The notes under the pieces are model-generated. The model did no database searches. It was not told the origin of the DNA and worked only from the letters and a program-made list of their open reading frames with translations. 64,000 bases of DNA from Laspinema sp. D2d. Its GTDB lineage: Bacteria > Cyanobacteriota > Cyanobacteriia > Cyanobacteriales > Laspinemataceae. Made by a program: the position numbers and the translations under genes. Below, in pieces: positions 15,942 through 45,000 of this stretch. The DNA lies in NCBI RefSeq assembly GCF_025370755.1, contig NZ_JAMXFC010000004.1, positions 81,505-145,504 on the forward strand. The letters run 5' to 3'. Numbering within the stretch: position 1 is the first letter of the stretch; every line of letters begins with the position of its first letter.

Positions 15942-16643
15942 CTAATCTTCAAATTTATAGCCCACACCAATAACCGTTTTAATAAAAGATGGATTCGCCG
16001 GGTCGAGTTCTATTTTTTTTCGCAAGCGGGCGACATGAGTATCGACAACCCGTTCATCGCCGAAAAAGTCATCCCCCCAGAGTTTTTCTATCAATTGCGA
16101 TCGCTGCCAAACCCGTCCAGGATAGCTTAAAAACGTTGACAGCAGATTAAACTCCAAGGTGGTTAAATCTAAGGTTTCCAACTCCCGGTTTTGCAGTTGC
16201 CTCGTAGCAATCCGTCGGTCCACATCCACCATAAAATGTTCGGTTTGGTAAATCTGAGAACTCTGATTCCCTTGGCGGAGGCTCCTTCGCAACAAGGCGC
16301 GGACCCGGGCCACCAATTCCCGAGGGCTGAACGGTTTGACCATATAATCATCGGCCCCGGTGGATAAGCCGATCACCCGGTCAATTTCCTCCCCTCGGGC
16401 GGTGAGCACTAAAATATACGGGTCTTTGGGTCCCGGTTTTTGCCGGATGCGCGCACAGACTTCTAACCCATCCAATCCCGGAAGCATTAAGTCTAAAACG
16501 ATTAAGTCTGGCTGTTCTGCTTCAAAGACACTCAGGGCCGTTAAACCATCGCGACAATTGAGGCATTGAAACCCTTCGGCTTCTAAGGCGCGTCCCACAA
16601 TCCGCGCAATTTCCGGTTCATCTTCAACGATTAAAATTTTCAT
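15942..16643 (-). CDS. OmpR-family response regulator (receiver plus winged-helix DNA-binding domain).
   Basis: MKILIVEDEPEIARIV...DLIVLDLMLPGLDG...GADDYMVKPFSPRELVARVRALLRR, C-terminal winged helix. Lies 20 bp downstream of the kinase gene. Confidence 0.9.
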   Translation of the reverse strand: MKILIVEDEPEIARIVGRALEAEGFQCLNCRDGLTALSVFEAEQPDLIVLDLMLPGLDGLEVCARIRQKPGPKDPYILVLTARGEEIDRVIGLSTGADDYMVKPFSPRELVARVRALLRRSLRQGNQSSQIYQTEHFMVDVDRRIATRQLQNRELETLDLTTLEFNLLSTFLSYPGRVWQRSQLIEKLWGDDFFGDERVVDTHVARLRKKIELDPANPSFIKTVIGVGYKFED

Positions 16644-16663
16644 AACATCGCCCCTTGCCTCCC

Positions 16664-19003
16664 TTAACTCACCGGCGTGGGATATCCATGAGGGGCCGCA
16701 TCCAAAGCCGGGGCAATCTCAAGGTCCTGGGTCTTTTCCACGGGCTGTTTTTTTTCTGGATACACCGCCAGATCGAACCAGAAGGTGGTTCCTACCCCCA
16801 CTTCGCTGACTAAATGCATTTGGGCATGATGTTTTTCCATAATATTGCGGACAATGGAAAGACCCAACCCGGTGCCTTCTAAGGTATGAACTCGGTTTTC
16901 CACCCGGAAGAAGCGATCGAAAATCGCAACTTGATCTTCTGCGGCAATCCCGATTCCCGTATCCCCTACTTCAATTCGCACCATCGGCACATTCGGTTTC
17001 TGCTGCTGGTTCGGGAGGGGACATTGGGGATTCCCCCGCCAAGAATTATCCTCTTCGGTTTCCAACAAATAGGCGCGAATCGCAATTCGTCCCCCGGGTT
17101 CGGTGAACTTCAGGGCGTTTCCCACCAAGTTGGCAAAGACTTGTAAGAGTAAATCATAGTTAGCCACCACTGGAGGTAACTCGGGGTCAACTTCTTGAAT
17201 CAGGTCGATATTTTTATCTTTGGCATTGAGTTGATAGGTACGCAGGGTTTGCTCCACAGGTTGAGCCAGTTCTACGGCTTCAAACTGATAAGTCTTGCTC
17301 GATTCCAGGCGCGAGAGGTCTAGGACATCGTTAACCAAGCGGGTGAGGCGATCGGTTTCCCGGTTGGCGGTTTCTAAAAATTCCTGACGTTCCTCTTGGG
17401 TGAGTTCTTCCCCATACTCATGCAAAGTTTCAATAAAAGACTTGATATTAAATAAGGGCGTTCTCAGTTCATGGGAGACATTGCTAATAAACTGACTCTT
17501 AGCTTCATTCAGCTTGACCTCCCGAGTAATATCTTGAACCGTCATCGCAATCCCTTTGAGACTCTCGCGATATTGCGCCGTCGCTGAGGAAACCGAGTCA
17601 TCATGATAGAGGGTGCATTCCGTGGCGTAGGGCCGTTCTGGGGCGGTACAGGTATCTTCGTGATGGTAGGTGCAACTCTTGCATAAAGGATCGACTCCGG
17701 GGGCTTTATGCAGCAGCACGGTACTGAGTAAAATTCGGACAGTGCGTTTTGTGGGTTCGCTCAGGGTGAGGCGAAACTCTCCACTCTCTCGGGACGCATA
17801 GCCGTTGGCGGAAATATCTCCCTCCCCGTCATTGGCGGAGGAAACCTCTCTCAGGGAATCCCCGGCGGCCATTTCATAGAGGGGTTGGGTTAATTCGGCA
17901 CTGACTGCATCCGGGAGCAAATCCAGGATATTTTGAGAAATCAGGTTTTTGCCTTCCCAGCCGAAAATTCGCCTTGCGGTGGGGTTGACTAAAATAACCT
18001 GTAAGGAAGTGTCTAATAAGACGGCTCCATCGGCGATGGTAGAAACGAGGGTTTCGAGTTTGGCTTTTTCGGCGGTGAGTTCTTCAATGTTTTGCTCCTC
18101 ATACCGTTCTAGCCGTTCAGCCATTTCATTAAAGCTGCAAATTAATTCCCCGAGTTCCCCTTGTAGGGGCAAGTCTATCCGCTGCTTAAAGTTTCCTGTA
18201 GCAATGTTTTTGACCCCAACCAGTAACTCTTTAATCGGTTTGGTAATGGTTAAGGCATTAAAGACGGCCCCTAAAATCACCATCACCCAGATGGAGATAA
18301 ACACGGCAATGGTGACATCTCGGGTGAGGTTGGAGGAGGTGACTACGGTGGGATTGGGGTTGATGCCGATCGCCAAGACGCCCAAATATTCGTTGTCGTG
18401 TGCCAGGGGGACAAAAACATCGGTGACGGTGCCATCCGGGGTGCGATGCTGCCGGACCATTGGCAAATCATAGGTATTGGCAAACCCTTCGGGAAGTTGA
18501 ATCCGCCGTTGCAGGGTTAGGGAATTTTGAACTTCGGACTCGGAAAAGGGAATTCCCAGGAAGATTTGACCTTCCTTATCGGCATAGAGCATATAGCGCA
18601 CGCTGGTGGTACTGCTATAGAACCGATGCGAAAAGCGGGCCACTTCTGTGCGATTATCTTCCGCAATTAACGGGGCGACATTGGCCGCCAGCAGCAGTCC
18701 CAAATCCCGACCGAAGCGGGTGTCATTGATTCGGGCATCCTGCTGAATGGTATTGACAGCCCAGAATGTGAGTCCACTCATAATGAGGGACACAACCAGG
18801 GTGGCGGCTGCCATCAGTCGGGTCTGGAGGGTGAATTCGGACCACCAACGGGCAATAATTTCTCGGATTTTGTTTAGGAGAGCCAGCAAGGTTCTTTCTA
18901 TCCGGTGGAAGGCAATGATGAGAGATGAGTCTATTGATATTGTGCCACGTTCTGAAGTTTTGCGATGAAGGGGCGTGGTTTTTTCTGAGGCGATCGCCCT
19001 CAA
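16664..19003 (-). CDS. nblS: NblS/Hik33(DspA)-like sensor histidine kinase (two TM segments, HAMP, PAS, HisKA, HATPase). The true start is probably an internal Met.
   Basis: N-terminus WWSEFTLQTRLMAAATLVVSLIMSGLTFWAVNTIQQDARINDTRFGRDLGLLLAANVAPLIAE matches my memory of the Hik33/NblS N-terminal signature. H-box ISNVSHELRTPLFNIKSF, ending GVGTTFWFDLAVY. Confidence 0.65.
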   Translation of the reverse strand: MRAIASEKTTPLHRKTSERGTISIDSSLIIAFHRIERTLLALLNKIREIIARWWSEFTLQTRLMAAATLVVSLIMSGLTFWAVNTIQQDARINDTRFGRDLGLLLAANVAPLIAEDNRTEVARFSHRFYSSTTSVRYMLYADKEGQIFLGIPFSESEVQNSLTLQRRIQLPEGFANTYDLPMVRQHRTPDGTVTDVFVPLAHDNEYLGVLAIGINPNPTVVTSSNLTRDVTIAVFISIWVMVILGAVFNALTITKPIKELLVGVKNIATGNFKQRIDLPLQGELGELICSFNEMAERLERYEEQNIEELTAEKAKLETLVSTIADGAVLLDTSLQVILVNPTARRIFGWEGKNLISQNILDLLPDAVSAELTQPLYEMAAGDSLREVSSANDGEGDISANGYASRESGEFRLTLSEPTKRTVRILLSTVLLHKAPGVDPLCKSCTYHHEDTCTAPERPYATECTLYHDDSVSSATAQYRESLKGIAMTVQDITREVKLNEAKSQFISNVSHELRTPLFNIKSFIETLHEYGEELTQEERQEFLETANRETDRLTRLVNDVLDLSRLESSKTYQFEAVELAQPVEQTLRTYQLNAKDKNIDLIQEVDPELPPVVANYDLLLQVFANLVGNALKFTEPGGRIAIRAYLLETEEDNSWRGNPQCPLPNQQQKPNVPMVRIEVGDTGIGIAAEDQVAIFDRFFRVENRVHTLEGTGLGLSIVRNIMEKHHAQMHLVSEVGVGTTFWFDLAVYPEKKQPVEKTQDLEIAPALDAAPHGYPTPVS

Positions 19004-19078: not shown

Positions 19079-19519
19079 TCACGGTTCCTGGCGCAAAATT
19101 TCTCGGACCTCCATTAAAATCTGACCCAATTTATTTTGTCCGCTGCCATCTTGACCACATCCCCAGTAATAATCATGGGGGGCATTTTCTACAAGTTCCT
19201 CATCTCCCGTTCCTAGCAAAATCTCCCGAATGTCGTCATGAGTCTGGAATTTTTTGAGGACTGCACGGCGCATGATTTCATCTTTGACGGTTTCCCAATC
19301 CGATCGCAAGGGACGTTTGCGATCGCGTCCCATGTTGGCGGCATCTTTGGGGTTGTTGACTTGTCGAATTTGTTCGGCATGGGGTGTTCCGACAAATTTT
19401 TGGGCTTGAAAATAATGTTCACTCGTCGGCCACCACACCCCATCTAACTCAAACCCATGTCGGGAAAAATTCGAGAAACATCCATATTCGCTACGGGTGC
19501 TATAAAAATATACAGTCAC
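19079..19519 (-). CDS. NADAR-domain protein (YbiA-like, DUF1768), GTG start.
   Basis: 146 aa. FYSTRSEYGCFSNFS...WPTSEHYFQAQKF...HDYYWGCG is the NADAR signature. AGGAG lies 8 nt upstream of the GTG. Confidence 0.8.
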   Translation of the reverse strand: MTVYFYSTRSEYGCFSNFSRHGFELDGVWWPTSEHYFQAQKFVGTPHAEQIRQVNNPKDAANMGRDRKRPLRSDWETVKDEIMRRAVLKKFQTHDDIREILLGTGDEELVENAPHDYYWGCGQDGSGQNKLGQILMEVREILRQEP

Positions 19520-19539
19520 AGTCTATACTCCTGTCCCTT

Positions 19540-20088
19540 TCAACTCAGGGCTTTTTCGATTAAATCGGTATATTTTTCCAGGGTAGTCGCATAATAACTT
19601 AAAAAATCTAGGGCCGGTTGACGAACGACCTTATCAAATTTCTCGACTTCGTTTGGTAGCACCTTTAAGGGTTGGGTAACCAGATAGCGACTGGAACTAT
19701 AATCAATATCTCCCTGTTTTAAATTTTCTTCTTCTTTGAGTTTTCCAATGAGCAGTTCTCCCAGGTTATAGTCGGAAGATTTGATATAAAGTAGAGGCGG
19801 ATTGTCCATGCCAAACAATCGTTCTGGGGTTAATCCTTCTAACCCAATTAATATGACATACTCATCATATTGAGACACCCAATTAGAATTAGAAATATAA
19901 ATTTCTGTGTCTTCATACACGATAAAATTCCACTGATTTTGCCACCAGGAATTTTTAATTAAATCGGCTTCCAGAGATTCTAAAAAATCCTGGAGTTCAG
20001 TTCTGAGGGTTTGTTCAGCTTTGAGAAGTTCCTGATAGGTTTCCCAATTTTTGGCTAATAACTTACTTTCATCTGAGAAAATTTTCAT
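19540..20088 (-). CDS. Hypothetical protein, 182 aa, acidic, no recognisable motif.
   Basis: The ORF lies 3 nt after the upstream gene and 20 nt before the NADAR gene. No motif recognised. Confidence 0.5.
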   Translation of the reverse strand: MKIFSDESKLLAKNWETYQELLKAEQTLRTELQDFLESLEADLIKNSWWQNQWNFIVYEDTEIYISNSNWVSQYDEYVILIGLEGLTPERLFGMDNPPLLYIKSSDYNLGELLIGKLKEEENLKQGDIDYSSSRYLVTQPLKVLPNEVEKFDKVVRQPALDFLSYYATTLEKYTDLIEKALS

Positions 20089-20091
20089 AAA

Positions 20092-20775
20092 TCATACCCT
20101 TGACACCACCTCAATCCAGTCTACCAAAATATGTTTAAGTTTTAGATCATTGAGTTGCGGCACAACTTGGTCCAAGGCGACGGCGAGTTGGGGATAGGAA
20201 ATCTGGTGCCAATGGGAGGGGTCTCCACTGACGGGTGCTCGCCCTTCGGGGGTTAAAAAGATGGCAATTTGTCGTTCTTTGGGGATGCGTTGCGCTGAAC
20301 CTAACCGGCGCATCTCCATAATTTCTAAGTCCGCTTGGTTGATGCCTTCTCGGTCCAAAATATTGTTATCGATCGCCACTAAAAACTCACCGGGTCGATA
20401 CAGGATCAAGTCCAGGCGCAATTGAGGTGCGATCGCCCCAGAGAGGAGGCGATAGGGTTGGGTGAAATGTTCTGAGGGAATGCAATTACCACAGAGTTTG
20501 ACAAGCTGTTCTAAAAACAGTGAACCTTGCCCATGACTGCCTTCCGCATCCAATAGCCACCCTAATACTGTTGTTTGGGTTGTCTCATTTTTGCTCAGTT
20601 GCAAAAGAGAGAATAGATTAAAATTAGCAATCTGACGCTGCCTGGACTTCTGACGGATGTCGGAAAAACTTGACAAGAATGCCGACATCTGAGCTTGGGT
20701 TTTTTCTCGTTTTGATTGCCCTAACGTTCTAAATTTACCGAGAAGGGCGCTCATTTTTTGGACTTTAGATGGCAT
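20092..20775 (-). CDS. PD-(D/E)xK nuclease-superfamily-like protein (PDDEXK_4-type N-terminal signature).
   Basis: The motif LGWLLDAEGSHGQGSLFLEQL matches the conserved LAWLLDP-GSHGLG-FL block of that family. Its ATG lies 11 nt upstream of the stop of the preceding kinase gene. Confidence 0.5.
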   Translation of the reverse strand: MPSKVQKMSALLGKFRTLGQSKREKTQAQMSAFLSSFSDIRQKSRQRQIANFNLFSLLQLSKNETTQTTVLGWLLDAEGSHGQGSLFLEQLVKLCGNCIPSEHFTQPYRLLSGAIAPQLRLDLILYRPGEFLVAIDNNILDREGINQADLEIMEMRRLGSAQRIPKERQIAIFLTPEGRAPVSGDPSHWHQISYPQLAVALDQVVPQLNDLKLKHILVDWIEVVSRV

Positions 20776-22699
20776 TTAAAATGGGGACAGAAGGTCGAGT
20801 ATGCTGGATGGATAAAGGATGAACTACAGGTTCAATGGGTAGGGTAATCCTAAATTCTGCCCCTCTTCCCGGTTGGGAACTGACCTCGATTTTCCCCCCA
20901 TGTTTTTCGACGACGCGGTAAACAATCGACAATCCCAAACCTGTGCCTTTTCCTGGGGGTTTTGTGGTGTAAAATGGGTCAAATATTTTGCTGTGGATTG
21001 ATGAATCAATCCCCGGACCATTATCCACAATTTTTATTTGGATTGTTCTTTCGTTGAGCTTCTGGGTTTGAATCAGGATTTGACGAGGGGACTGAATGGC
21101 CTTTGTTTCTTTCTCAGCTTCGCTTTCTAAGGCATCGATCGCATTAGAAATCAAGTGCATAAACACTTGATTGAGTTGCGCCGGATAGCACTCGATCGGG
21201 GCTAAGTCATCATACCGGGTAATCACTTCAATATGGGGCTGTAGCCGATGGTTACAGAGTAACAGGGTACTGTCAATCCCTTCATGAATATCGACTCGTT
21301 TTTTCTCGGATTCGTCCAGGCGTGAAAAGTTACGCAAAGAAAGGACAATCTGCCGAATTCGCTCGGACCCAATGCTCATGGAGGAGAGCATTTTGGTTAA
21401 GTCGCTGATGACGAATTCTAAATCTACATCTTCAATGAGTTCCTGTAGTTCCGGGGACGGATTAGGATGCTCTTTTTGATACAGTTTGACGATTTCGAGG
21501 ATGTCTTGGATGTAATGATTGCTATGCTCGATATTCCCGGTGATAAAGTTGATAGGATTGTTAATTTCGTGGGCAATTCCTGCGACTAACTGTCCCAAAC
21601 TGGACATTTTTTCAGTTTGAATGAGTTGGGTTTGAGCTTGCTGAATTTCCTGGAGTTGTTGTTCAACTCGACTGATCAATTGATTGAGGGAGGTGGCTAA
21701 TAAACCCGCCTCATCTTCGGTGAGGATGGGGACGCGGAGTCTATAATTCGATTGTTCGGTGGTTCGTAGAGCAACTTGGGTGACCCATTCAATGGGACGG
21801 GCGATCGCCCGACTGGTGTAAGAGGCTAACATCGCGGCGATCGCCACGGATAAAATCATACTGAGAACGGCAATTTGCCATCGCAAAGATTCAGCTTTTG
21901 TAAAAGTTTCTTTGGCCGCAGTCTCTTGGGCCTGGGCTGCATCTAAGGTCTGGTCTAACGCCTGATAGAGGGCTTCTAATGCCAATTCTACTTGAGAAAT
22001 TTGGGCCAAAACTTTCTCTTTTTCTGAGTCGTTTAGCCGGATTAATAAATCAGAAAATGTAAGAGATTGGGAAGACTGTAATTGAATTAAGTCTTGATAA
22101 GATTTTTCAGCCACTTGTTGAATTTCCCATAATTTTTGCATTTGGGATTCATCTACAGTGACTAAACTCTTTTCATTGGTTCTCACCAATTTTTGTAAAT
22201 GGGTTAAAAGGGTCTTAACTTTCTGACTCTGGGTCATAAAGTTGCGGCTTTTTGATTGACTCCAGAGGGATTGATCCGTACCGGAAACTAAACCTTGTTG
22301 CTGCGATCGCGCGGTGACCACTTCATATTGCAAATGGGTGAGGACCCGCTGTTGCTCGTAGGCATGAACCAGTTGTTGTTTGGCTTTGTTGTGATAGCGA
22401 TCGCCCACTACTAACCCCAGACCCGTTCCCAGTAAGGCGATCGAAATGGTCAGAGCATACCCATAGCCGATTTTTTGCTTAATACTTAAGCGGCGAATCT
22501 TGGTTTTGAGCTGATCCAGGAGATTGGGAGCGGATTTCCCTACCTTGCGAATCTGTGGGGGATCCACAATCGCTCTCGGTTGTCGGGTCTCTAGGACCTC
22601 GTAAGGCTCTTGAAGCTGCATAGATGGGGCTTCCCTTGCTGATAATGATACTCTTGTCTGAGGACAAGCGGTGTTTTCTCGGTGTAAGGATCCCAACAT
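20765..22699 (-). CDS. Sensor histidine kinase with a TM-bounded extracytoplasmic coiled-coil sensor, HAMP and a cyanobacterial-type HisKA/HATPase core. Orphan, with no adjacent response regulator.
   Basis: TM1 IGYGYALTISIALLGTGLGLVVG, TM2 IAVLSMILSVAIAAMLASY, H-box QTEKMSSLGQLVAGIAHEINNPINFITGN, G-boxes DNGPGI / GKGTGLGLS. Start alternatives are 22699 or ATG 22621. Confidence 0.85.
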   Translation of the reverse strand: MLGSLHRENTACPQTRVSLSAREAPSMQLQEPYEVLETRQPRAIVDPPQIRKVGKSAPNLLDQLKTKIRRLSIKQKIGYGYALTISIALLGTGLGLVVGDRYHNKAKQQLVHAYEQQRVLTHLQYEVVTARSQQQGLVSGTDQSLWSQSKSRNFMTQSQKVKTLLTHLQKLVRTNEKSLVTVDESQMQKLWEIQQVAEKSYQDLIQLQSSQSLTFSDLLIRLNDSEKEKVLAQISQVELALEALYQALDQTLDAAQAQETAAKETFTKAESLRWQIAVLSMILSVAIAAMLASYTSRAIARPIEWVTQVALRTTEQSNYRLRVPILTEDEAGLLATSLNQLISRVEQQLQEIQQAQTQLIQTEKMSSLGQLVAGIAHEINNPINFITGNIEHSNHYIQDILEIVKLYQKEHPNPSPELQELIEDVDLEFVISDLTKMLSSMSIGSERIRQIVLSLRNFSRLDESEKKRVDIHEGIDSTLLLCNHRLQPHIEVITRYDDLAPIECYPAQLNQVFMHLISNAIDALESEAEKETKAIQSPRQILIQTQKLNERTIQIKIVDNGPGIDSSIHSKIFDPFYTTKPPGKGTGLGLSIVYRVVEKHGGKIEVSSQPGRGAEFRITLPIEPVVHPLSIQHTRPSVPILNAI

Positions 22700-23201
22700 A
22701 ACGATGATGAAGGTCTCCTCTTCAACGATCTGAACGCTGACTTAGGCGGTGATCAACTGCCAACTGGGTAGAATTCCAGAATGGAACAGGCATCCGTCTT
22801 CACAAAAAACTGGGTGAATCGGGTTCGGGGTGCGTTAGCATTTCTCTACTTTATTAAATTTTTATAAAATTTCCAAGGGTTTTATAATTTTCAGTGATCA
22901 TACGGAGCCTTTAGGGGCTTGACACTGAGGGCCACAGGACTGGATATTTAAAGGAATTAATCTGTTTGCCTTGAACAATTATATTTGAGTCAGTGTAAAA
23001 TTGCAAATATTTAATCTTTATTTGAACGATAAGTAATCATCAGAGGCTTGGCTCTGAGAATTTAGGCTCACTCGTTGAGTGGGGGAAAGGGGGAGGGGCC
23101 GTGGAATAAACTGATTAATAGCAATTCTGGACTCACCTGCTAAATTAACCTCAATTTTCTCTTCATCACTCCCTATTATCCTTTCTTTACCTCTATATTT
23201 T

Positions 23202-25933: not shown

Positions 25934-27973
25934 TCACAATTTACGGTGATAAACCCTGACAATTTCCTGACCAATTTTTTTAATTTTCTTGACTAATTCT
26001 GGTGGTGTATGAATCTTTAGATTGCCATCAAATCCCACAATCCATCGCAAAAAACTGACATCATTGAGGGACCATTTTGGAAGCTTAATTTGTAGGCGAT
26101 TGGGAAACTCGGGGTCAGGAGAGGCCGTTAAGTAAATCGGTGAAAATTTATCGTTTTCCTGGAAAAAAAACGGCTCAGAAATGGTGATTTTATGAGTCGG
26201 TAAATGCTTGGTTTCTTCGCGAATAAACCGAAAGGACTTATCCGTAAACCATAATTCAACAACTAACTCGACTTGCTTGCGGTTTTCGGGATTGGAACTG
26301 AGGAAACGGCGCTGCTGGGTGGTACTGGTTCCTAAAAATATCCCGGCACTTTCTCGGTAAAGGGTTTCTAATTGTTGTACTGATTTTTCCTGAATTTCCA
26401 CACTGCGAGAGGTTTCCATTTCTTGATTCACCCGCAATCGGTCCAAGCGTTCTAAGCGAAATAATCCCGGTTCTTTGCCGCCTTCACATTCATAGCCGAG
26501 ATACCAGGATCCTCCATAAAACATGATTTTTAACGGCCAAGCTAAAAAGAAATGTTCGATATTTTTTGATAAGTCTTTAAATCCGGGAATGCGTTTAAAT
26601 TCTAGGAGAGTTCCCTGGGCGATCGCTGCCTCAATTCTAGGAATAAAAGGAAAATCCCGGGCGTTATAATGGGCGATTTCTCGAATGGGATAAGCATCAG
26701 AACCATGACCCTTTAACTCCGTCAGGGCCATGCGGTCTTTTAACTGGTGAGAAATAGAAAGGGCGAGAGGGTCAGTGAGATAGCAGTCCTGAGACTGTAG
26801 CAACCAATAGATTTGCTTTAACTCCGTAGGGGAAAAAATCGCTGTTCCTGCAAAATAACCGGGTTTCAAGGGCAAATCTGATAAAATTTTATAGGGTTTG
26901 AGGATGCGATTTATATCTTTTCGCAGGTGATTATCTCCAGTTTGGGGAATAATTTCCTGTTTCTGAAGTGCGATCGCCAATGCCTGAAAATTGGCGGTTC
27001 CCGGTTCTCGAAAAACGGGGTTATGGATAATAAAGCGAATGGTTGCCAGCAGTCGTTTAAAAGGTGCGATCGCCGAGTAAGGATGGGGTGATACAGCCAC
27101 ATTTTCCAGCGTTTCCACTTGAATTGCTAAAGTATTGCCATTCCAAAAACTGCCACTTCCAATGAGATGATTCCCTTCCAACCATTCCAAATCTGATGCT
27201 AAAGCAACAGCATCAGCATAGAGTTTTCCCGCTAATTTTCCCATGATGGCGCTGACTTCTTCAAGGGCGCTGGAAAATTGAGGGACGGGATCAAAAAGGT
27301 TTTCTAAAACCGATGGCGCGGTATGTTGCAGGTTGCCGATTCCCGGATAGCGCAAAATCAGGGAAATTAAGTGCATGAGGCGATCGAAATCCTGCAACTG
27401 GGAATATCGATGATATTGGGGTGGAGAAAGGGACTGTCGGGGTTCTCCTGGGTGGCGATCGCGCAGGCGTTGGATTTTTTGTTGGATATCTGCCTCCTGA
27501 ACCCCTTTTTCTGGGTTGACTCGATGCAATGCGGCAAACCCTTCTGCCAGCAAAGGCGGAAACTGATCCAGCGATCGCGACATGGACTCAAGGACCCCCC
27601 CTGGCACCTGGCGACTGCGCGTTTGGTTCCATTGCTGGCAGGTTGCCAAAGACGTCACCAAGTGCCACCCCATCCAGGGGACCTCAAATTGCCGCAATTT
27701 CAACAGCAAACTCATGCGCCATTCCCGTTTGGCATTGGTGGCGTCATAGATTACGCTATCTCCTGCCGCGATCGCAGCTTGAATCTGCGCGATCGCCTCT
27801 TGTTCAATCGCTTCCCAGTTTCCCTGGATCCGTTCATCCCCATAGAGGCATTTGCGGATCCCATCCGTCGAAACGATCCGTCCCTCCGTAAGTTTTGTCA
27901 GCATTGCGGCAAAGCTAGATTTGCCACAACCAGGGATCCCAATCAAAAAGTGGCAGATTAGCGGCGGTTGCAT
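25934..27973 (-). CDS. Fusion protein with an N-terminal P-loop kinase (AAA_33 / polynucleotide-kinase-like), HTH, WYL ligand-sensing domain and a WCX-like C-terminus.
   Basis: Walker A FLIGIPGCGKSSFA, plus STDGIR...DATN. Literal WYL core WPLKIMFYGGSWYLGYECEGG...FRLERLDRL at about aa 475-515 (genome 26429-26551). C-terminus LRWIVGFDGNLKIHTPPELVKKI is typical of the WYL-regulator C-terminal extension. Confidence 0.7.
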   Translation of the reverse strand: MQPPLICHFLIGIPGCGKSSFAAMLTKLTEGRIVSTDGIRKCLYGDERIQGNWEAIEQEAIAQIQAAIAAGDSVIYDATNAKREWRMSLLLKLRQFEVPWMGWHLVTSLATCQQWNQTRSRQVPGGVLESMSRSLDQFPPLLAEGFAALHRVNPEKGVQEADIQQKIQRLRDRHPGEPRQSLSPPQYHRYSQLQDFDRLMHLISLILRYPGIGNLQHTAPSVLENLFDPVPQFSSALEEVSAIMGKLAGKLYADAVALASDLEWLEGNHLIGSGSFWNGNTLAIQVETLENVAVSPHPYSAIAPFKRLLATIRFIIHNPVFREPGTANFQALAIALQKQEIIPQTGDNHLRKDINRILKPYKILSDLPLKPGYFAGTAIFSPTELKQIYWLLQSQDCYLTDPLALSISHQLKDRMALTELKGHGSDAYPIREIAHYNARDFPFIPRIEAAIAQGTLLEFKRIPGFKDLSKNIEHFFLAWPLKIMFYGGSWYLGYECEGGKEPGLFRLERLDRLRVNQEMETSRSVEIQEKSVQQLETLYRESAGIFLGTSTTQQRRFLSSNPENRKQVELVVELWFTDKSFRFIREETKHLPTHKITISEPFFFQENDKFSPIYLTASPDPEFPNRLQIKLPKWSLNDVSFLRWIVGFDGNLKIHTPPELVKKIKKIGQEIVRVYHRKL

Positions 27974-29676: not shown

Positions 29677-30228
29677 ATGGTATTCGGTCAAGAACCTCCC
29701 ACCCTGATCAAACATCGTCTCTCCTATTCCGGTCGAAAATTTGGCTTTGATGTCAACCGTTTACGCCTTCCCAATGGTGCTGAAGGGGAATGGGAATGCA
29801 TTCGACACCCTGGCGGCGCACTCTGCATCCCTGTTACCGCAGATGGACGACTCGTTTTAGTGGAACAATATCGCTTTGCAGTCCAAGGACGATTACTCGA
29901 ATTTCCCGCTGGAACTGTGGAACATGATGAAGAACCCTTTCAAACCATTCAACGAGAAATAGAAGAAGAAACCGGATACCGTGCGCATCAATGGCAAAGA
30001 TTAGGTCAGTTTTTCCTCGCCCCGGGGTATTCTGATGAAGTCATTTATGCGTTTTTAGCCCAAGATTTAGAAAAGTTGACGACCCCACAACAATTGGATG
30101 AAGATGAAGATATCCAAACCATTTTAATGACGCCTCATGACTTTGAACTGGCAATTTTAAATGGAGAAGTAGTCGATTCTAAATCTATTTCCAGTTTTTT
30201 CTTAGCGCAACGGCTGTTGAATTTTTAA
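29677..30228 (+). CDS. NUDIX hydrolase (ADP-ribose pyrophosphatase-like).
   Basis: Nudix box GTVEHDEEPFQTIQREIEEETGY (G-x5-E-x7-REUxEExGU). Confidence 0.85.
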   Translation: MVFGQEPPTLIKHRLSYSGRKFGFDVNRLRLPNGAEGEWECIRHPGGALCIPVTADGRLVLVEQYRFAVQGRLLEFPAGTVEHDEEPFQTIQREIEEETGYRAHQWQRLGQFFLAPGYSDEVIYAFLAQDLEKLTTPQQLDEDEDIQTILMTPHDFELAILNGEVVDSKSISSFFLAQRLLNF

Positions 30229-30255
30229 AACAAGTATCCAACAAAAAATGGCGGT

Positions 30256-31146
30256 TTGCGGTCCATACCGAACGGGGTTAAAAAGGGGAGAAAAATGCTT
30301 TTAGAATTAGCGATCGGCGATGCTTACGGGGCGGGATTTGAATATGCCGATGAGATGATTCCCGAAAATACTTTAAGGCAGTATGTCCAACATCCTCGGC
30401 ATCAAATTCGTCCCGGATGTTACACCGATGACACCCAAATGAGTTTGGCGATCGCCGAAACTTTGGTATCTGGAGAACCTTGGACAACCCTGGCAGTCGC
30501 CAATCACTTCGTTACCGCATTTAAACGCGACCCCCGAGAAGGATACTCTCCCAAATTTTATGACTTCTTGCTACAAGTCGAAGATGGAGCCGACTTTTTA
30601 GCTAAAATTAACGTTAGAAGTGATAAAAGTGGTGCCGCCATGCGTGCCGCACCCATTGGGGTATTAGCGACCCCAGAAGCGGTGATTGAAGCAACCACCT
30701 TGCAAGCGGCGATTACTCATAATACCCCCGATGGTATTAATGCTGCTTGTGCCGCAGCATTAATGTCCCATTATTTTATTTATAATCGGGGATCTAAACT
30801 GAATTTGGGTGAATTTATTGACACTTATATTCCCGGTTATCAATGGTCCCAACCCTGGGAAGGACCCGTCAAAACAACCGGATGGATTTGTGTCAAAGCT
30901 GCCTTAACTGCGATCGCCCGCAATCATTCCCTAAGTGGACTGCTACAAGATTGCATTGCCTTTACCGGCGATGTGGATACCGTCGCTGCGATCGCCCTTG
31001 CCGCTGCCTCCAATAGTGCAGAAATCACGCAGGACCTTCCCCAAACCCTCATTGATACTTTAGAAAATCAGACTTACGGAAAAGATTATATCATTGAATT
31101 AGACCCAAAATTAATGAGTTTAAAGGAAACTCACTCTGTAAATTAA
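30256..31146 (+). CDS. ADP-ribosylglycohydrolase family protein (DraG/ARH-like).
   Basis: [16 protein letters not shown]...[15 protein letters not shown], with a C-terminal [14 protein letters not shown] metal-binding pattern. Alternative start at ATG 30295. Confidence 0.8.
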
Positions 31147-31177: not shown

Positions 31178-32614
31178 ATGTCTGATTTAATTTTATTTTG
31201 GCATCGCCGGGATTTAAGAATAACTGATAATATCGGGTTGGCGACTGCCTTTAAGAAAAGCCGAAAACTCGTGGGAGTATTTTGCCTAGACCCGAATATT
31301 TTAAAAGGTTCAGATATTGCCCCAGCGCGGGTTAAATATATGCTGGGTTGTTTGGCTGAACTCCAGGAAAACTATGCTAAAATAGGGAGTCAACTGTTCA
31401 TTTTGTTTGATGAACCCAGACAGGCGATCGCCCGATTAGCCACTGCCTTAGAAGCACAATTTGTCTATTGGAATTTAGACGTAGAACCGTATTCCCAGGA
31501 CCGAGATCAAGCAGTCCGAGAAGCCCTAAAAAAACAGGGAATTGCAGTGGAAAACTTTTGGGACCAGCTTTTACATTTTCCCGGAGAAATTTGTAGTAAT
31601 ACCGGCAATCCCTACACCATTTATACGCCTTTTTGGAAAAACTGGATTCGCCAAACCAAAGCAGAACCTGTCCCGGGATTAGATACGGCTATATCTCTTA
31701 GCAAAGAAGAACAAGAAAAGGCTAAAAATGCCGGTGCAGTTGCATTACCGACGCTCAAAGATTTAGGATTGAGTTGGGACAATCCGCTGATGCTGGAACC
31801 GGGAGAAAGTGCTGCGCGATCGCAACTGGAAGACTTTAGCGATCGCACCATTTACGACTACGACGAACAACGGAATTTCCCCGCCGTTCCCGGAACTTCT
31901 CTACTAAGTGCCGCCCTCAAATTTGGTGCGATCGGCATTCGCACCGTCTGGAATGCCACCCTAAGCGCCGCTGAAGAATGCCGGAGTGACGAAACCCGCA
32001 AAGGTGTCCAAACCTGGCAACAAGAACTCGCATGGCGCGAATTTTATCAACAGGCACTTTATCACTTTCCTGAACTTGCCACCGGACCTTATCGAGAAGC
32101 TTGGAAAGACTTTCCTTGGGAAAATAACGAAGAACTATTTCAAGCTTGGTGTGAAGGACAAACGGGTTATCCTATCGTTGATGCTGCCATGCGCCAACTC
32201 AATGAAATCGGCTGGATGCATAACCGTTGTCGGATGATTGTTGCTAGTTTTCTCACCAAAGATTTGATTATAAATTGGCAGTGGGGAGAACAATATTTCA
32301 TGCAAAAATTATATGATGGAGACCTTGCGGCTAACAATGGGGGTTGGCAATGGAGTGCTTCCAGTGGCATGGACCCCAAACCCCTGCGAATTTTTAATCC
32401 CACAACTCAAACCCAGAAATTCGACCCCGAGGGAGACTACATTCGCGAGTGGGTACCGGAGTTGCGATCGATGGAAACAGAAGCGTTAATTTCAGGTAAA
32501 ATTCTTCCGTTGGAACGCAAATCCTGTGGATATCCTGAAACCATAGTCAATCACAATGAGCAGCAGCGGCGATTTAAAGCTTTATATCAACAACAAAAAG
32601 CCTTGACAGAGTAA
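31178..32614 (+). CDS. phr: Deoxyribodipyrimidine (CPD) photolyase, class I, Anacystis-type.
   Basis: [83 protein letters not shown]. Near-colinear with the A. nidulans photolyase as I recall it. Confidence 0.9.
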
Positions 32615-42092: not shown

Positions 42093-45000
42093 TTAAAAAC
42101 CGGATTCCGGTAGCCGAATAATCAGATCAGTTCCCACTCCCACTTGCGACTGACAGGTGAGAGAACCGCCATGACGGGAGATAATCGCATAACTCACCGA
42201 TAGCCCCAATCCCGTTCCCTGTCCCACGGATTTTGTGGTAAAAAAGGGTTCAAAAATATGGTCTTTAATTTCGTCACTAATCCCATTTCCGTTATCCGAA
42301 ATAGTCACCTCAAGGGCAGCCGAATCCAACCCCTTAGTTTTAATCCAAATTGTGGGTTTCACCCCCGGTTTTTGGAAATTCCGTAAGGCATCAATGGCAT
42401 TACTTAACAGACTTAAAAACACTTGATTGATTTGGCTGGCATAACAGGACAGACCCGGAAGGGTTCCATACTCCTTGACTACCTCAATTGGAGGAGTGTT
42501 GGAGTCTCCCGCTAACCGTCCTTGTAAAATCATGAGGGTGCTTTCTAGTCCTTCATGTAAATCTACCGTTTTGATATCCGACTCATCCAGGCGAGAGAAG
42601 TTACGAAGACTGAGGATAATCGTTTTAATGCGCTCACTCCCCGCTTGCATAGACTTAAATAGATTCTGATAGTCTTGGCCGATAAAACTCAATTCAATCT
42701 CATCCCGGAGCGTTTGCACGACGGCATTTTCTTGAGGATATTCTTCTTGATAACAGTCAACCAAACTCAATAGATCCGTGACATATTGCTCCGCATGGGC
42801 CAGATTGCCATGAATAAAGTTGATGGGATTGTTAATTTCATGAGCAATCCCCCCGACTAATTGACCCAGGGCGGACATTTTTTCACTTTGAATCAGTTGG
42901 GTTTGGGTTTGTTGTAAGTGGGTGAGAGTGGCTTCTAAATCCAGGGCTTTTTGACGGAGGGCTTGGGTTTTGCGTTCTACTTCGCCTTCTAAGGTGTGGG
43001 AATAGTCGGCAACTTGTTGATAAAGACGAGCATTTTGGATGGAAATAGCCGCTTGAGCGGCTAGAATCTGTAAAGTTTCCACGCGATCGCCCGTAAATGC
43101 GCCAATCGTCTGCTGATTCTCCAAATACAGCACTCCTATGAGGGTTCCCTGTTGCACGATGGGAATCCCCAGTAAACTCTTGGGTTGCTGTTCTCTCACA
43201 TAGCGATCGCTCCTGAGCCGGGGATGCCCTAGAGCATTGCCAATCACCATCGGTTTGAGACTGCGGCGAACAGTATGTACTAGGGTTTCGGCAATCTCAG
43301 GATAATCGGAGAGGGGAATCGACTCTACCCGGGGCGCTTCCTCCAACGTGGCGATCGCCTCGATAAACCATTGGCTCCCCTGGGGCATCAATAGCAACCC
43401 CTTATCCGCCCCTGCATTCTTGAGAACAATCTCCAACAGCCTCGCCAGAAGTGAGTTCAGATCCATCTCACCGGAAAGGGTTTGAGAGGCTTTCAAGACA
43501 GTAGCTAGGTCCAGACTCGCCGAGAGACTGGTACTATCGGCACTGGAGGATTGACTCGTTCCTGTTTGAGTGACGGTAATTGATTCAGTGGCTAAAAGGG
43601 TATCCGTCATTGACCACATCGATCGCTCAGGATTGAGAATCGACCCCAGCAGACGAGGATAACGGCGTTCCAAATCCACCACTTTAGTTTTTGCGCCCCA
43701 GTAGATATAACCATAATAGGCGTCAGTGAGATAGACTTGGGCGATTTTATCTTTCCCCCAATCCCGATAAAACTGGGCAGCACGTTCACAAGCGAGGGCT
43801 TCTTCCTGGGGGTATTGAGCTGCTTTCGCACCAGCGATCGCCCGATCATAAGCCTCCATCGCCGCCATGTTCTCTCCTAACATCCGATACCGTTCCGCTT
43901 CTACTAACTCGAACTTATGTTGAAAGTTCGCTGGGGCCGCTTGGGTCCATCGTTGTAGTTTCTCCTGGTTTTCCTCAACCCTCTGCCAAATCGCCTCCTG
44001 CTGCTCCCTCCCCCGATGGCTATAATCCGCTAACTGCACTAACGAATCATAGAAATAAAAGACAGAACCAGAATAAAGCCCTGGAGCCCCATTAATATAA
44101 GGTTTCGCTAAATCTGCCCATTCTCGTCCTTGCTCAATCTCACCCAACAAATAGCTAAGAATCAGTTTCTGGAGATACACCTGATAAATCGCATAGCGAT
44201 CGTCCATCTGATAATGCCGAGGTAACGATTGCCGTTCATTATAGGCCGCTCCCACTAATTCCGTAGGCTTCTCAGGTGCATCCAAAAGGTTCAAAACCGT
44301 CTGACGATAAATTTCATGATAGGCCAAGGTATTCAGTTGATTGATATCTGCTAATGCCTGACTATAGTGGGCGAGCTTTTCCCCGAGGTGACTTAGATTT
44401 TTACCACAAAAATATTCGTATTCATTATGATGTAAAATACAATAGGCCGCATATTCCAGATCCCCGGCTTCTAACCCGGTTTGATACCCCTCTTCCAACG
44501 CTGTCAGACAGTCTCTCAAGGGCTGTTGCCAAGGGAGAATGATGCTATAAACCATGTTTAAAACGCTGGCTTTGAGGCTTTTGGCATTGAATTTTTCTAT
44601 GAGTTCCATTGCCAGTTGTCCAAACTCAAAACCCTGGGCAAACTGACCCAAATTCGACAGAATCAACCCATAAGCCGCATAAGTAAAAGCAGACCCCGAT
44701 GAATTGCCATGCTGGAGCAATAAGCTGACCTGCTCAGAAATCACCAGGGGTAATAGACCCGGATAGGCCACAAAGCTAATTGAAACAAAGGTGATTAAAA
44801 TTCTCAGGGTAGCCAGTTTTTCGGCGTTTTGCATCGGGGGCAAATCGAGAAGCTGATGCACGGGTCGATGGGCAAGCAGCGCCTCGACCCGCGCCAGAGC
44901 TAGGGTTGTATCATCGGGGGTTGGATGGTCTGGTAAATGAATGTCAAGCTGGGCTAAAACCGATTTCCCCAGGGCTAATGCCTCCGGTAAGCGGTTTTGA

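What the first reader, a model, noticed from the sequence alone, without database searches (positions are those of the whole stretch)
19079..22699. Orphan sensor kinase translationally coupled to a cassette of PD-(D/E)xK-like, unknown and NADAR genes
Seen in sequence: the kinase stop codon TAA (20767-20765) lies 11 nt inside the next gene, whose ATG is at 20775-20773. The next junction is 3 nt. The third is 20 nt and carries AGGAG 8 nt before a GTG start. So four genes form one compact minus-strand operon with no response regulator nearby. The products are a 227-aa protein with the LGWLLDAEGSHGQG block of a PD-(D/E)xK nuclease family, a 182-aa protein with no recognisable motif, and a 146-aa NADAR protein. 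From established knowledge, NADAR/YbiA enzymes cleave N-glycosidic bonds and some reverse ADP-ribosylation of nucleic-acid bases. The inference is that a nuclease-like protein plus NADAR under direct kinase coupling could be an undescribed nucleic-acid-directed stress, defence or toxin-antidote module with a sensory input. I cannot assign it to any described system.
Basis: partly seen in the sequence, partly recalled or inferred. Interest (0 to 1): 0.65.

Follow-up and report, generated by a model that had tools for sequence, protein, structure and literature searches.

The report
Kinase-linked split nuclease-like pair plus NADAR
A cyanobacterial four-gene cluster that looked like a new kinase-controlled defence module is a sensor kinase followed by a two-gene ("split") form of a known but uncharacterised nuclease-like family whose usual catalytic lysine is missing here, and then an ordinary YbiA-type NADAR enzyme; it is moderately interesting, not a new kind of system.

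Summary
Four minus-strand genes (kinase 644 aa, 227 aa, 182 aa, NADAR 146 aa) are packed exactly as described and all are under purifying selection (dN/dS 0.06-0.21).

The interpretation needs three corrections.
- The "unknown" 182-aa protein is the C-terminal domain of the same family as the 227-aa protein. About 20 of 136 relatives are single ~400-aa PDDEXK_4 + C-domain proteins, related to PADLOC candidate PDC-S26. Everywhere else its gene directly follows a PDDEXK_4 gene. The pair is an old, conserved gene split, not two independent functions.
- In every kinase-linked cyanobacterial copy the (D/E)xK lysine is replaced (DNN, DNT, DQS, EAN). All 19 other members compared keep ENK or EIK. The "nuclease" is remodelled or inactive.
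- The NADAR is a close YbiA relative (E = 7.5e-48 to E. coli YbiA). The Oxynema cassette lacks it, and so do the five loci sampled outside the clade. No ADP-ribosyltransferase or other toxin is present.

A response regulator lies about 2.4 kb downstream but pairs with another kinase. The kinase-pair linkage is conserved only within one Oscillatoriales clade, in a housekeeping neighbourhood. Best reading: a vertically inherited kinase operon carrying a heterodimeric, non-canonical PDC-S26-like protein, with YbiA as a separable passenger.

The parts
20765..22699 (-). Membrane sensor histidine kinase (644 aa). Order of parts: predicted TM segment, ~180-aa helical outer domain, predicted TM segment, HAMP, DHp with H-box AHEINNP, HATPase_c. 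No receiver domain.
   Evidence: Pfam gives HATPase_c at 1.2e-26, and HAMP and HisKA each at 1e-05. The best NCBIfam hit is a generic histidine-kinase subfamily below its cut-off. Orthologues are 76-92% identical in Laspinema-type loci, and a 49% identical copy sits upstream of the pair in Oxynema. dN/dS is 0.15-0.19. The TM segments are my reading of the translated sequence.
20092..20775 (-). N-terminal half of a split PDDEXK_4 / PDC-S26-like protein (227 aa). It has a restriction-endonuclease fold with a non-canonical active site: E64, D122, D136-N137-N138 in place of E-N-K, and a clade-specific R142.
20089..20094 (-). Split junction: in-frame TGA (20094-20092) plus one codon (TTT), then the ATG of the 182-aa gene at 20088.
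   Evidence: Read-through translation is. The stop is TGA, TAA or TAG in different relatives, and the restart ATG is conserved. Other lineages have out-of-frame spacers or overlaps. The split is therefore old and selected, not a nonsense mutation or programmed read-through.
19540..20088 (-). C-terminal half of the split protein (182 aa). It is an alpha/beta sandwich domain with no Pfam family, always found fused to or immediately after a PDDEXK_4 domain.
19528..19532 (-). AGGAG Shine-Dalgarno-like element 8 nt upstream of the NADAR GTG start.
   Evidence: Read directly.
19079..19519 (-). YbiA-subfamily NADAR (146 aa): an N-glycosidase and nucleobase de-ADP-ribosylase type enzyme.
   Evidence: PF08719 gives 2.8e-45. 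TIGR02464 scores 173 bits against a 73.7-bit cut-off. The alignment to E. coli YbiA (2b3w) is gap-free at E = 7.5e-48, with the SEHYFQ, LVE and D-YWG positions conserved. dN/dS is 0.06-0.11. The Oxynema cassette lacks it.
22700..23201 (.). Divergent intergenic region between the kinase and glpK; the likely promoter region of the cluster.
   Evidence: The best minus-strand sigma-70-like match is TTTGCA-18-TATAAT at 23007-22978. The number of such sites in the region is not above shuffled expectation (9 found, 6.9 +/- 3.2 expected). No terminator-like site lies at any junction within the cluster on the minus strand.

Best explanation
This is a vertically inherited operon-like cluster of a Laspinema/Oscillatoria-type cyanobacterium. 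A membrane HAMP histidine kinase is followed by a two-gene version of one protein family, and then by a YbiA-type NADAR.

The 227-aa protein (restriction-endonuclease fold, PDDEXK_4) and the 182-aa protein (uncatalogued alpha/beta sandwich domain) are the two halves of what is a single ~400-aa polypeptide in some other bacteria. That family is related to PADLOC's untested phage-defence candidate PDC-S26.

Inferred: the two halves assemble into a heterodimer that reproduces the two-domain protein. The C-domain would recognise a ligand or nucleic acid and the N-domain would be the effector.

In the whole kinase-linked cyanobacterial clade the family's E-N-K motif has lost its lysine. An Arg four residues later is fixed, and the genes stay under purifying selection. 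Inferred: the pair here acts through binding, or through a remodelled and weaker catalytic site, rather than as a canonical DNA-cutting defence effector. It would be produced with the kinase by co-transcription and stop/start overlap.

The NADAR is most simply the cell's YbiA enzyme, which hydrolyses N-glycosidic bonds in riboflavin intermediates and ADP-ribosylated guanine or cytosine. It is co-transcribed but separable. The cluster is not a toxin-antitoxin system.
For: Shown:
- ORFs, junctions and domains are as stated.
- The 182-aa family occurs either fused C-terminally to PDDEXK_4 or encoded right after a 224-233-aa PDDEXK_4 gene in every context examined.
- PDC-S26 models align across the junction or over the full length of fused relatives.
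- The stop codon at the split varies (TGA, TAA, TAG) while the split itself is conserved.
- All four genes have dN/dS of 0.06-0.21.
- Lysine is lost in 7 of 7 clade members and in 0 of 19 outside. Arg at K+4 is present in 7 of 7 inside and 1 of 19 outside.
- The kinase-pair order is kept from Laspinema to Oxynema, where the kinase is 49%, p227 36% and p182 55% identical, despite different flanks on both sides.
- The NADAR is close to E. coli YbiA and passes the TIGR02464 cut-off.
- Neighbouring genes are housekeeping.
Against: - No transcript, interaction or activity data exist. Heterodimer formation is inferred only from the fused homologues.
- Loss of the Lys does not prove inactivity. Some PD-(D/E)xK enzymes use other residues or a relocated basic residue, and R142 could compensate.
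- The NADAR stays attached to the pair with a conserved 20-23-nt spacer in every clade member except Oxynema, including across a downstream rearrangement. It may be functionally linked rather than a passenger.
- YbiA-type NADARs can act as antitoxins elsewhere (PMC11125620).
- Kinase linkage within a single clade could be plain inherited synteny with no functional meaning.
Confidence: 0.5

Rival explanations
1. One reading: a kinase-controlled, nucleic-acid-directed defence, stress or toxin-antidote module. The kinase would sense envelope or infection stress and switch on the nuclease-like pair. The NADAR would reverse or pre-empt base ADP-ribosylation or other N-glycosidic damage.
For: - The four-gene order and tight junctions are conserved in all Laspinema-type relatives and in L021/L022 at about 60% identity of the 182-aa protein.
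- The pair's family matches a PADLOC defence candidate.
- The NADAR gives weak hits to PDC-M42C (1.3e-15) and to the DS32_2 anti-phage NADAR model.
- YbiA NADARs are antitoxins in YarT-YbiA pairs, and E. coli ybiA lies in a LexA operon (PMC11125620).
Against: - No ART or other toxin fold is present in the cluster.
- The catalytic Lys is lost in exactly the kinase-linked clade.
- The DS32_2 score of 86 bits is far below its 240-bit cut-off, and no PDC-M42 A or B component was found.
- The Oxynema cassette lacks the NADAR.
- Neither a kinase nor a NADAR lies next to the pair in the five loci sampled outside the clade.
- The neighbourhood is housekeeping and shows no mobile-element genes.
Confidence: 0.13
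2. Functionally unrelated neighbours. The kinase, the split PDC-S26-like pair (a decaying former defence gene) and ybiA merely sit together by descent in one clade. The compact spacing reflects ordinary cyanobacterial gene packing.
For: - The linkage is seen only in one Oscillatoriales clade.
- The NADAR is dispensable in the Oxynema cassette.
- The kinase-p227 junction is an overlap in Laspinema but a 41-nt spacer in L021 and an 85-nt spacer in Oxynema.
- Active-site residues are degenerating. L021 and P0018 also lose E64, Oxynema loses D122, and L021's copy no longer hits Pfam.
Against: - The pair is not decaying. dN/dS is 0.07-0.21, and the C-domain keeps all family-wide near-invariant residues.
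- The kinase-pair order survived rearrangements on both flanks between Laspinema, the L001/L012 lineage and Oxynema.
- The stop/start overlap is conserved in all Laspinema-type loci.
Confidence: 0.27
3. The 227-aa and 182-aa ORFs are one gene interrupted by a nonsense mutation (a pseudogene), or are joined by programmed stop-codon read-through.
For: The two ORFs are in the same frame, separated by a single TGA plus one codon. Fused ~400-aa homologues exist.
Against: - The stop is conserved in all relatives but as TGA, TAA or TAG, and it is always followed by a conserved ATG.
- In L021, Oxynema, L013, L017 and L019 the two genes are out of frame or overlap.
- Stand-alone C-domain genes are the majority of the family.
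- Both halves are under purifying selection.
Confidence: 0.03

Closest known systems
PADLOC phage-defence candidate PDC-S26 (single-gene PDDEXK_4 + C-terminal domain protein, ~350-450 aa), predicted by 'guilt-by-embedding' (Payne et al., bioRxiv 10.1101/2024.01.29.577857); not experimentally validated as far as I could find
   Same: - The N-terminal PDDEXK_4 domain carries the LAWLLD...H.QG motif.
- Eleven PDC-S26 models hit the 227-aa protein, the best at 9.3e-19.
- With the two ORFs joined, some models align across the junction into the 182-aa part.
- Fused relatives of the 182-aa protein align over the full length of some PDC-S26 models.
- The combined length of 409 aa matches.
   Different: - It is encoded as two genes.
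- Scores are modest (65 bits) and mostly cover the N-terminal half.
- The catalytic E-N-K is replaced by D-N-N.
- It is not embedded in BREX, DISARM, type I RM or Hma loci, nor in any defence island.
- It is linked to a histidine kinase and a NADAR.
Pfam PF14281 PDDEXK_4 (PD-(D/E)XK superfamily, function listed as unknown in Steczkiewicz et al. 2012, PMC3424549)
   Same: The HMM hit is above the gathering threshold. The predicted structure has a restriction-endonuclease-like fold.
   Different: The Lys of the (D/E)xK motif is absent in this clade.
E. coli YbiA / TIGR02464 riboflavin-intermediate N-glycosidase; YbiA subfamily of NADAR (PMC11125620, PMC12945103)
   Same: The alignment to 2b3w is gap-free over 141 residues at E = 7.5e-48. 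The score is above the TIGR02464 cut-off. It is a bare YbiA domain with no extension, and the Glu of the last strand is conserved.
   Different: The genomic context differs. E. coli ybiA lies in a LexA-controlled operon with dinG, rhlE and ybiB, and myxobacterial ybiA lies next to the ART toxin YarT (PMC11125620). Here it follows the split PDDEXK_4 pair.
DarT1-NADAR and YarT-YbiA toxin-antitoxin systems
   Same: A NADAR hydrolase is encoded tightly next to small genes of unknown function.
   Different: No ADP-ribosyltransferase domain or fold is present in the neighbouring proteins. The NADAR is last in the cluster and is absent from the Oxynema version.
YktB / DUF1054 (PDB 2a8e, 3mqz), function unknown

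Membership tests
Pfam PF14281 PDDEXK_4 | HMM match above the gathering score | tested here: met
   37.7 bits against a 22.3-bit cut-off, residues 52-208.
Pfam PF14281 PDDEXK_4 | Restriction-endonuclease (PD-(D/E)xK) fold | tested here: met
Pfam PF14281 PDDEXK_4 | Catalytic D ... (D/E)-x-K residues | tested here: not met
   D122 is kept, E is replaced by D136, and K by N138. All 7 clade members lack the Lys, while the 19 other family members have ENK or EIK.
PADLOC PDC-S26 | Match to the PDC-S26 HMMs | tested here: inconclusive
   Eleven models hit p227 (best 9.3e-19, 66 bits), but mainly over profile positions 5-207 of about 400. p182 alone hits none. The joined sequence extends some alignments to profile position ~290. 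PADLOC's own thresholds are not available here.
PADLOC PDC-S26 | Single polypeptide of ~350-450 aa | tested here: not met
   Two ORFs are separated by a conserved stop. Fused relatives exist in other lineages.
PADLOC PDC-S26 | Embedded in, or next to, known defence systems | tested here: not met
   Neighbours are kinases, GlpK, Dus, HPPK, NUDIX, ARH, photolyase and PurD. PADLOC gives only a WYL-domain hit and a weak PDC-S07 (NUDIX) hit.
PADLOC PDC-S26 | Anti-phage activity | not testable with these tools
   This needs plaque assays. The family is only a candidate in the source paper.
YbiA subfamily of NADAR (TIGR02464) | HMM match above the curated cut-off | tested here: met
   TIGR02464 scores 173.2 bits against 73.7. 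PF08719 scores 155 bits against 35.1.
YbiA subfamily of NADAR (TIGR02464) | Glu in the last beta-strand, which distinguishes YbiA from BC4488/DarG1 (Asp) and phage (His) NADARs (PMC11125620) | tested here: met
   The window's 'ELVEN' aligns gap-free with 'KLVEH' of E. coli YbiA. The criterion is taken from the paper read.
DarT1-NADAR / YarT-YbiA toxin-antitoxin | Adjacent ADP-ribosyltransferase toxin gene | tested here: not met
DS-32 NADAR anti-phage protein (NCBIfam NF053876) | Score above the curated cut-off | tested here: not met
   86.1 bits against a 240-bit cut-off.
PADLOC PDC-M42 (multi-gene candidate with a NADAR C component) | All components (A, B, C) present | tested here: not met
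   Only PDC-M42C is hit, by the NADAR at 1.3e-15. The kinase, p227 and p182 hit no PDC-M42 model.
Classical two-component system | Histidine kinase core (DHp with phospho-acceptor His, plus HATPase_c) | tested here: met
   HATPase_c 1.2e-26. HisKA 25.9 bits, just under the 26.9-bit cut-off. HAMP 26.2 bits. The H-box AHEINNP is seen in the translation.
Classical two-component system | Cognate response regulator encoded adjacent to the kinase | tested here: not met
   No receiver domain is present in the cluster. The nearest regulator (15942-16643) is 20 nt from a different kinase (16664-19003). That kinase-regulator pair is absent downstream in L001/L012 and Oxynema.

The most novel reading that the evidence does not exclude
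In one Oscillatoriales lineage, a split PDC-S26-like protein was captured behind a membrane histidine kinase. It lost its canonical nuclease lysine and now serves, with a co-transcribed YbiA NADAR, as a kinase-associated sensor or effector for nucleic-acid damage or base ADP-ribosylation. That would be a non-receiver output or accessory module for a two-component kinase, derived from an immune gene.
Probability: 0.12. Interest if true: 0.7.

Novelty: new variant of a known kind. Interest (0 to 1): 0.35.

Why it matters
If the kinase link is functional, this would be a defence-type nuclease fold domesticated as a partner of a sensor kinase that has no adjacent response regulator. That would be relevant to how cyanobacteria wire their many such kinases.

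Two results are useful for annotation regardless of the kinase question:
- They assign the many ~185-aa "hypothetical proteins" found after PDDEXK_4 genes to an uncatalogued C-terminal domain family (about 136 clusters at 50% identity).
- They show that PDC-S26-like proteins exist mostly as two-gene systems, which single-gene defence-finder models will miss or truncate.

The work also removes a false lead: nothing here supports a new toxin-antidote system.

Tried and rejected
- Nonsense pseudogene or read-through for the in-frame TGA. Rejected because the stop varies as TGA, TAA or TAG while staying conserved, and other lineages have out-of-frame or overlapping junctions.
- Defence-island context. 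Rejected by Pfam and PADLOC scans of 10 flanking proteins.
- Metagenome scans with broad C-domain alignments failed because no stretch was conserved enough. The narrower alignment returned a single short locus.
- The genome-contig scan with the single 227-aa protein found only close relatives.
- The third word-indexed protein search, run with the 78-sequence profile, added only Oxynema and one Armatimonadota protein.
- tblastn of a fused homologue against plasmids and phages matched only the N-domain of generic PDDEXK_4 proteins.
- The viral-contig scan gave two distant N-domain hits, which were not followed up.
Domain packing could therefore not be modelled.
- The afdb50 fold library was unavailable.
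- Several context look-ups landed on contigs too short to be informative.
- Rfam found nothing in the window.
- The promoter and terminator scan was not above shuffled expectation.

Full report
**Observation**

The four minus-strand ORFs exist exactly where stated. They are a 644-aa histidine kinase (20765-22699), a 227-aa ORF (20092-20775), a 182-aa ORF (19540-20088) and a 146-aa NADAR (19079-19519). The sequence confirms all three junctions:
- The kinase TAA at 20767-20765 lies 11 nt inside the next ORF, whose ATG is at 20775-20773.
- TGA at 20094-20092 is followed by 3 nt and then the ATG at 20088.
- TGA at 19542-19540 is followed by 20 nt carrying AGGAG (19532-19528), 8 nt before the GTG at 19519.

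Pfam, NCBIfam and PADLOC confirm the domain assignments. The kinase has HAMP, HisKA and HATPase_c. The 227-aa protein matches PF14281 PDDEXK_4. The 182-aa protein matches nothing. The last gene matches PF08719 NADAR.

NCBI annotates two orthologues of the 227-aa protein as 220 aa, starting at Met8. The Oxynema and L021 orthologues start at the equivalent of Met1, and Oxynema has no Met8. I therefore keep ATG 20775 and the 11-nt overlap.

**The 227-aa and 182-aa ORFs are two halves of one protein family**

The PADLOC hit of the 227-aa protein is to PDC-S26, whose models are about 400 positions long. Only positions 5-207 are covered, and 227 + 182 = 409. The two ORFs are also in the same frame, separated by TGA and one codon.

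I ran an exhaustive HMMER search of 1.84 billion representatives with a profile of the 182-aa family. It found 136 proteins.
- Most are stand-alone proteins of 180-195 aa.
- About 20 are 380-440 aa, with the match in their C-terminal half.

All ten fused proteins I tested have an N-terminal PF14281 domain. Some of them align over the full length of PDC-S26 models. With the window's two ORFs joined, some PDC-S26 models align across the junction into the 182-aa part.

In every genomic context retrieved, the stand-alone C-domain gene directly follows a 224-233-aa PDDEXK_4 gene. Those contexts include Laspinema-type genomes, Oxynema, an Armatimonadota MAG and several metagenome contigs.

The split is not a recent accident.
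- The stop at the junction is TGA, TAA or TAG in different relatives, and the restart ATG is conserved.
- In other lineages the two genes are out of frame or overlap.
- Both halves are under purifying selection.

The "unknown 182-aa protein" is therefore the separately encoded C-terminal domain of a PDC-S26-like protein. The cassette contains three functional units rather than four.

**What the two halves look like**

**The active site is non-canonical in exactly this clade**

I aligned the N-domains of 26 family members. All 19 members outside the cyanobacterial clade carry E-N-K (one has E-I-K) at the (D/E)xK position. All 7 kinase-linked cyanobacterial members lack the lysine:
- DNN in the window, L001 and L006
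- DQS in L003
- DNT in L021 and P0018
- EAN in Oxynema, which also loses the upstream Asp

L021 and P0018 additionally lose the first conserved Glu, and L021's copy no longer hits Pfam. An Arg four residues after the lost Lys is present in 7 of 7 clade members and in 1 of 19 outside. The site may therefore be remodelled rather than dead.

dN/dS of 0.09-0.21 shows the protein is still needed.

**Conservation of the cluster**

The order kinase-227-182-NADAR, with the same junctions, is found in all Laspinema / Oscillatoria-acuminata-type genomes and MAGs retrieved. It is also found in more distant metagenomic relatives at 60-65% identity of the 182-aa protein.

The flanks differ between lineages.
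- Upstream lies GlpK-Dus in Laspinema and a paralogous kinase in Oxynema.
- Downstream lies an NblS-like kinase plus OmpR regulator in Laspinema, and NifU-DUF2518 in L001/L012 and Oxynema.

Oxynema keeps the kinase (49% identity) and the pair, with an 85-nt spacer, but has no NADAR. Outside this clade, the five loci examined had the pair without a kinase or a NADAR. One of them lay near an AbiEi gene.

So the kinase-pair link is stable within one clade, and the NADAR link is slightly less so. Neither recurs independently.

**The NADAR**

It aligns without gaps to E. coli YbiA (2b3w) at E = 7.5e-48. It exceeds the TIGR02464 cut-off (173 against 73.7 bits). It is far below the cut-off of the anti-phage NADAR model NF053876 (86 against 240 bits). 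It keeps the Glu of the last strand that defines the YbiA subfamily (PMC11125620).

YbiA-type enzymes are N-glycosidases for riboflavin intermediates. They also remove ADP-ribose from guanine and cytosine in vitro (PMC12945103; PMC11125620). [quoted passage not shown]

The NADAR evolves much more slowly than the pair. In L004 it is 86% identical, against 65-67% for the pair. That fits a housekeeping enzyme.

**Surroundings**

An OmpR-type regulator lies at 15942-16643. It is paired with the 779-aa HAMP-PAS kinase at 16664-19003, so the 644-aa kinase has no adjacent partner. "No response regulator nearby" is therefore inexact.

Flanking genes are housekeeping: GroEL, a desaturase, GlpK, Dus, HPPK, NUDIX, an ADP-ribosylglycohydrolase, photolyase and PurD. 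No integrase or transposase was seen among the proteins scanned. No terminator-like site lies at any junction within the cluster. The promoter-like sites upstream of the kinase are not more numerous than chance. Rfam finds nothing in the window.

**Mechanism**

Most likely (about 0.5), the cluster is a vertically inherited kinase operon. It carries a heterodimeric, non-canonical PDC-S26-like protein, with ybiA as a co-transcribed but separable gene.

In this reading the C-domain recognises a ligand or nucleic acid. The N-domain binds, or cuts weakly, through a remodelled site. Both of those roles and the heterodimer itself are inferred from the fused homologues, not shown.

The rivals are:
- unrelated neighbours kept together by descent (about 0.27)
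- a pseudogene or read-through (about 0.03, effectively refuted)

**Comparison and novelty**

The closest known entity is PADLOC candidate PDC-S26. It comes from guilt-by-embedding predictions and I found no record of validation. PDDEXK_4 itself is listed with unknown function (PMC3424549).

The window's version differs in four ways. It is split, it lacks the lysine, it sits in a housekeeping locus, and it is linked to a kinase and YbiA. I file it as a new variant of a known kind.

Interest is moderate to low (0.35). The split-gene and lost-lysine findings are useful, and the kinase link is a testable curiosity. Nothing indicates a categorically new system.

Noticed in passing
window 29677-31146 (+): A NUDIX hydrolase (29677-30228, with a weak PADLOC PDC-S07 hit at 4.4e-08) sits directly before an ADP-ribosylglycohydrolase (30256-31146), which is followed by a photolyase (31178-32614). 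This is a second set of ADP-ribose-related genes about 10 kb from the NADAR.
   Followed up: no
window 25934-27973 (-): A 679-aa protein has an N-terminal AAA_33/KTI12-like P-loop kinase domain and a C-terminal WYL domain (PADLOC WYL model 1.8e-16). It is syntenic with the cluster in all Laspinema-type relatives. This architecture looks unusual to me; I did not check it against described families.
   Followed up: partly
window 15942-19003 (-): A 779-aa HAMP-PAS histidine kinase (NblS/Hik33-like architecture) and an OmpR-type regulator lie immediately downstream of the NADAR. The spacer between the NADAR and this kinase ranges from about 75 nt to about 560 nt among close relatives, which suggests a separate transcription unit and possibly an insertion in some strains.
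   Followed up: partly
L016 1-1783 and 3659-5412 (Armatimonadota MAG, GCA_051745855.1): Here the PDDEXK_4 gene is followed by two tandem paralogues of the C-domain gene (189 aa and 188 aa, each about 26% identical to the window protein). An AbiEi_2-type gene pair lies about 2 kb away.
   Followed up: no
L015 3275-7216 (Oxynema sp. CENA135): Two tandem paralogous kinases (43% and 49% identical to the window kinase over their full length) precede the split pair, and two phosphonate-binding-protein genes lie upstream.
   Followed up: no
L023 4926-5336 and L024 5001-5411 (IMG/VR contigs): Two viral contigs encode a distant PDDEXK_4 relative (28% identity to residues 42-184 of the 227-aa protein). 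I did not check whether a C-domain follows.
   Followed up: no
window 42093-47585 (-) and 48639-54377 (-): Two very large ORFs (1830 aa and 1912 aa) lie on the minus strand. They were not examined.
   Followed up: no
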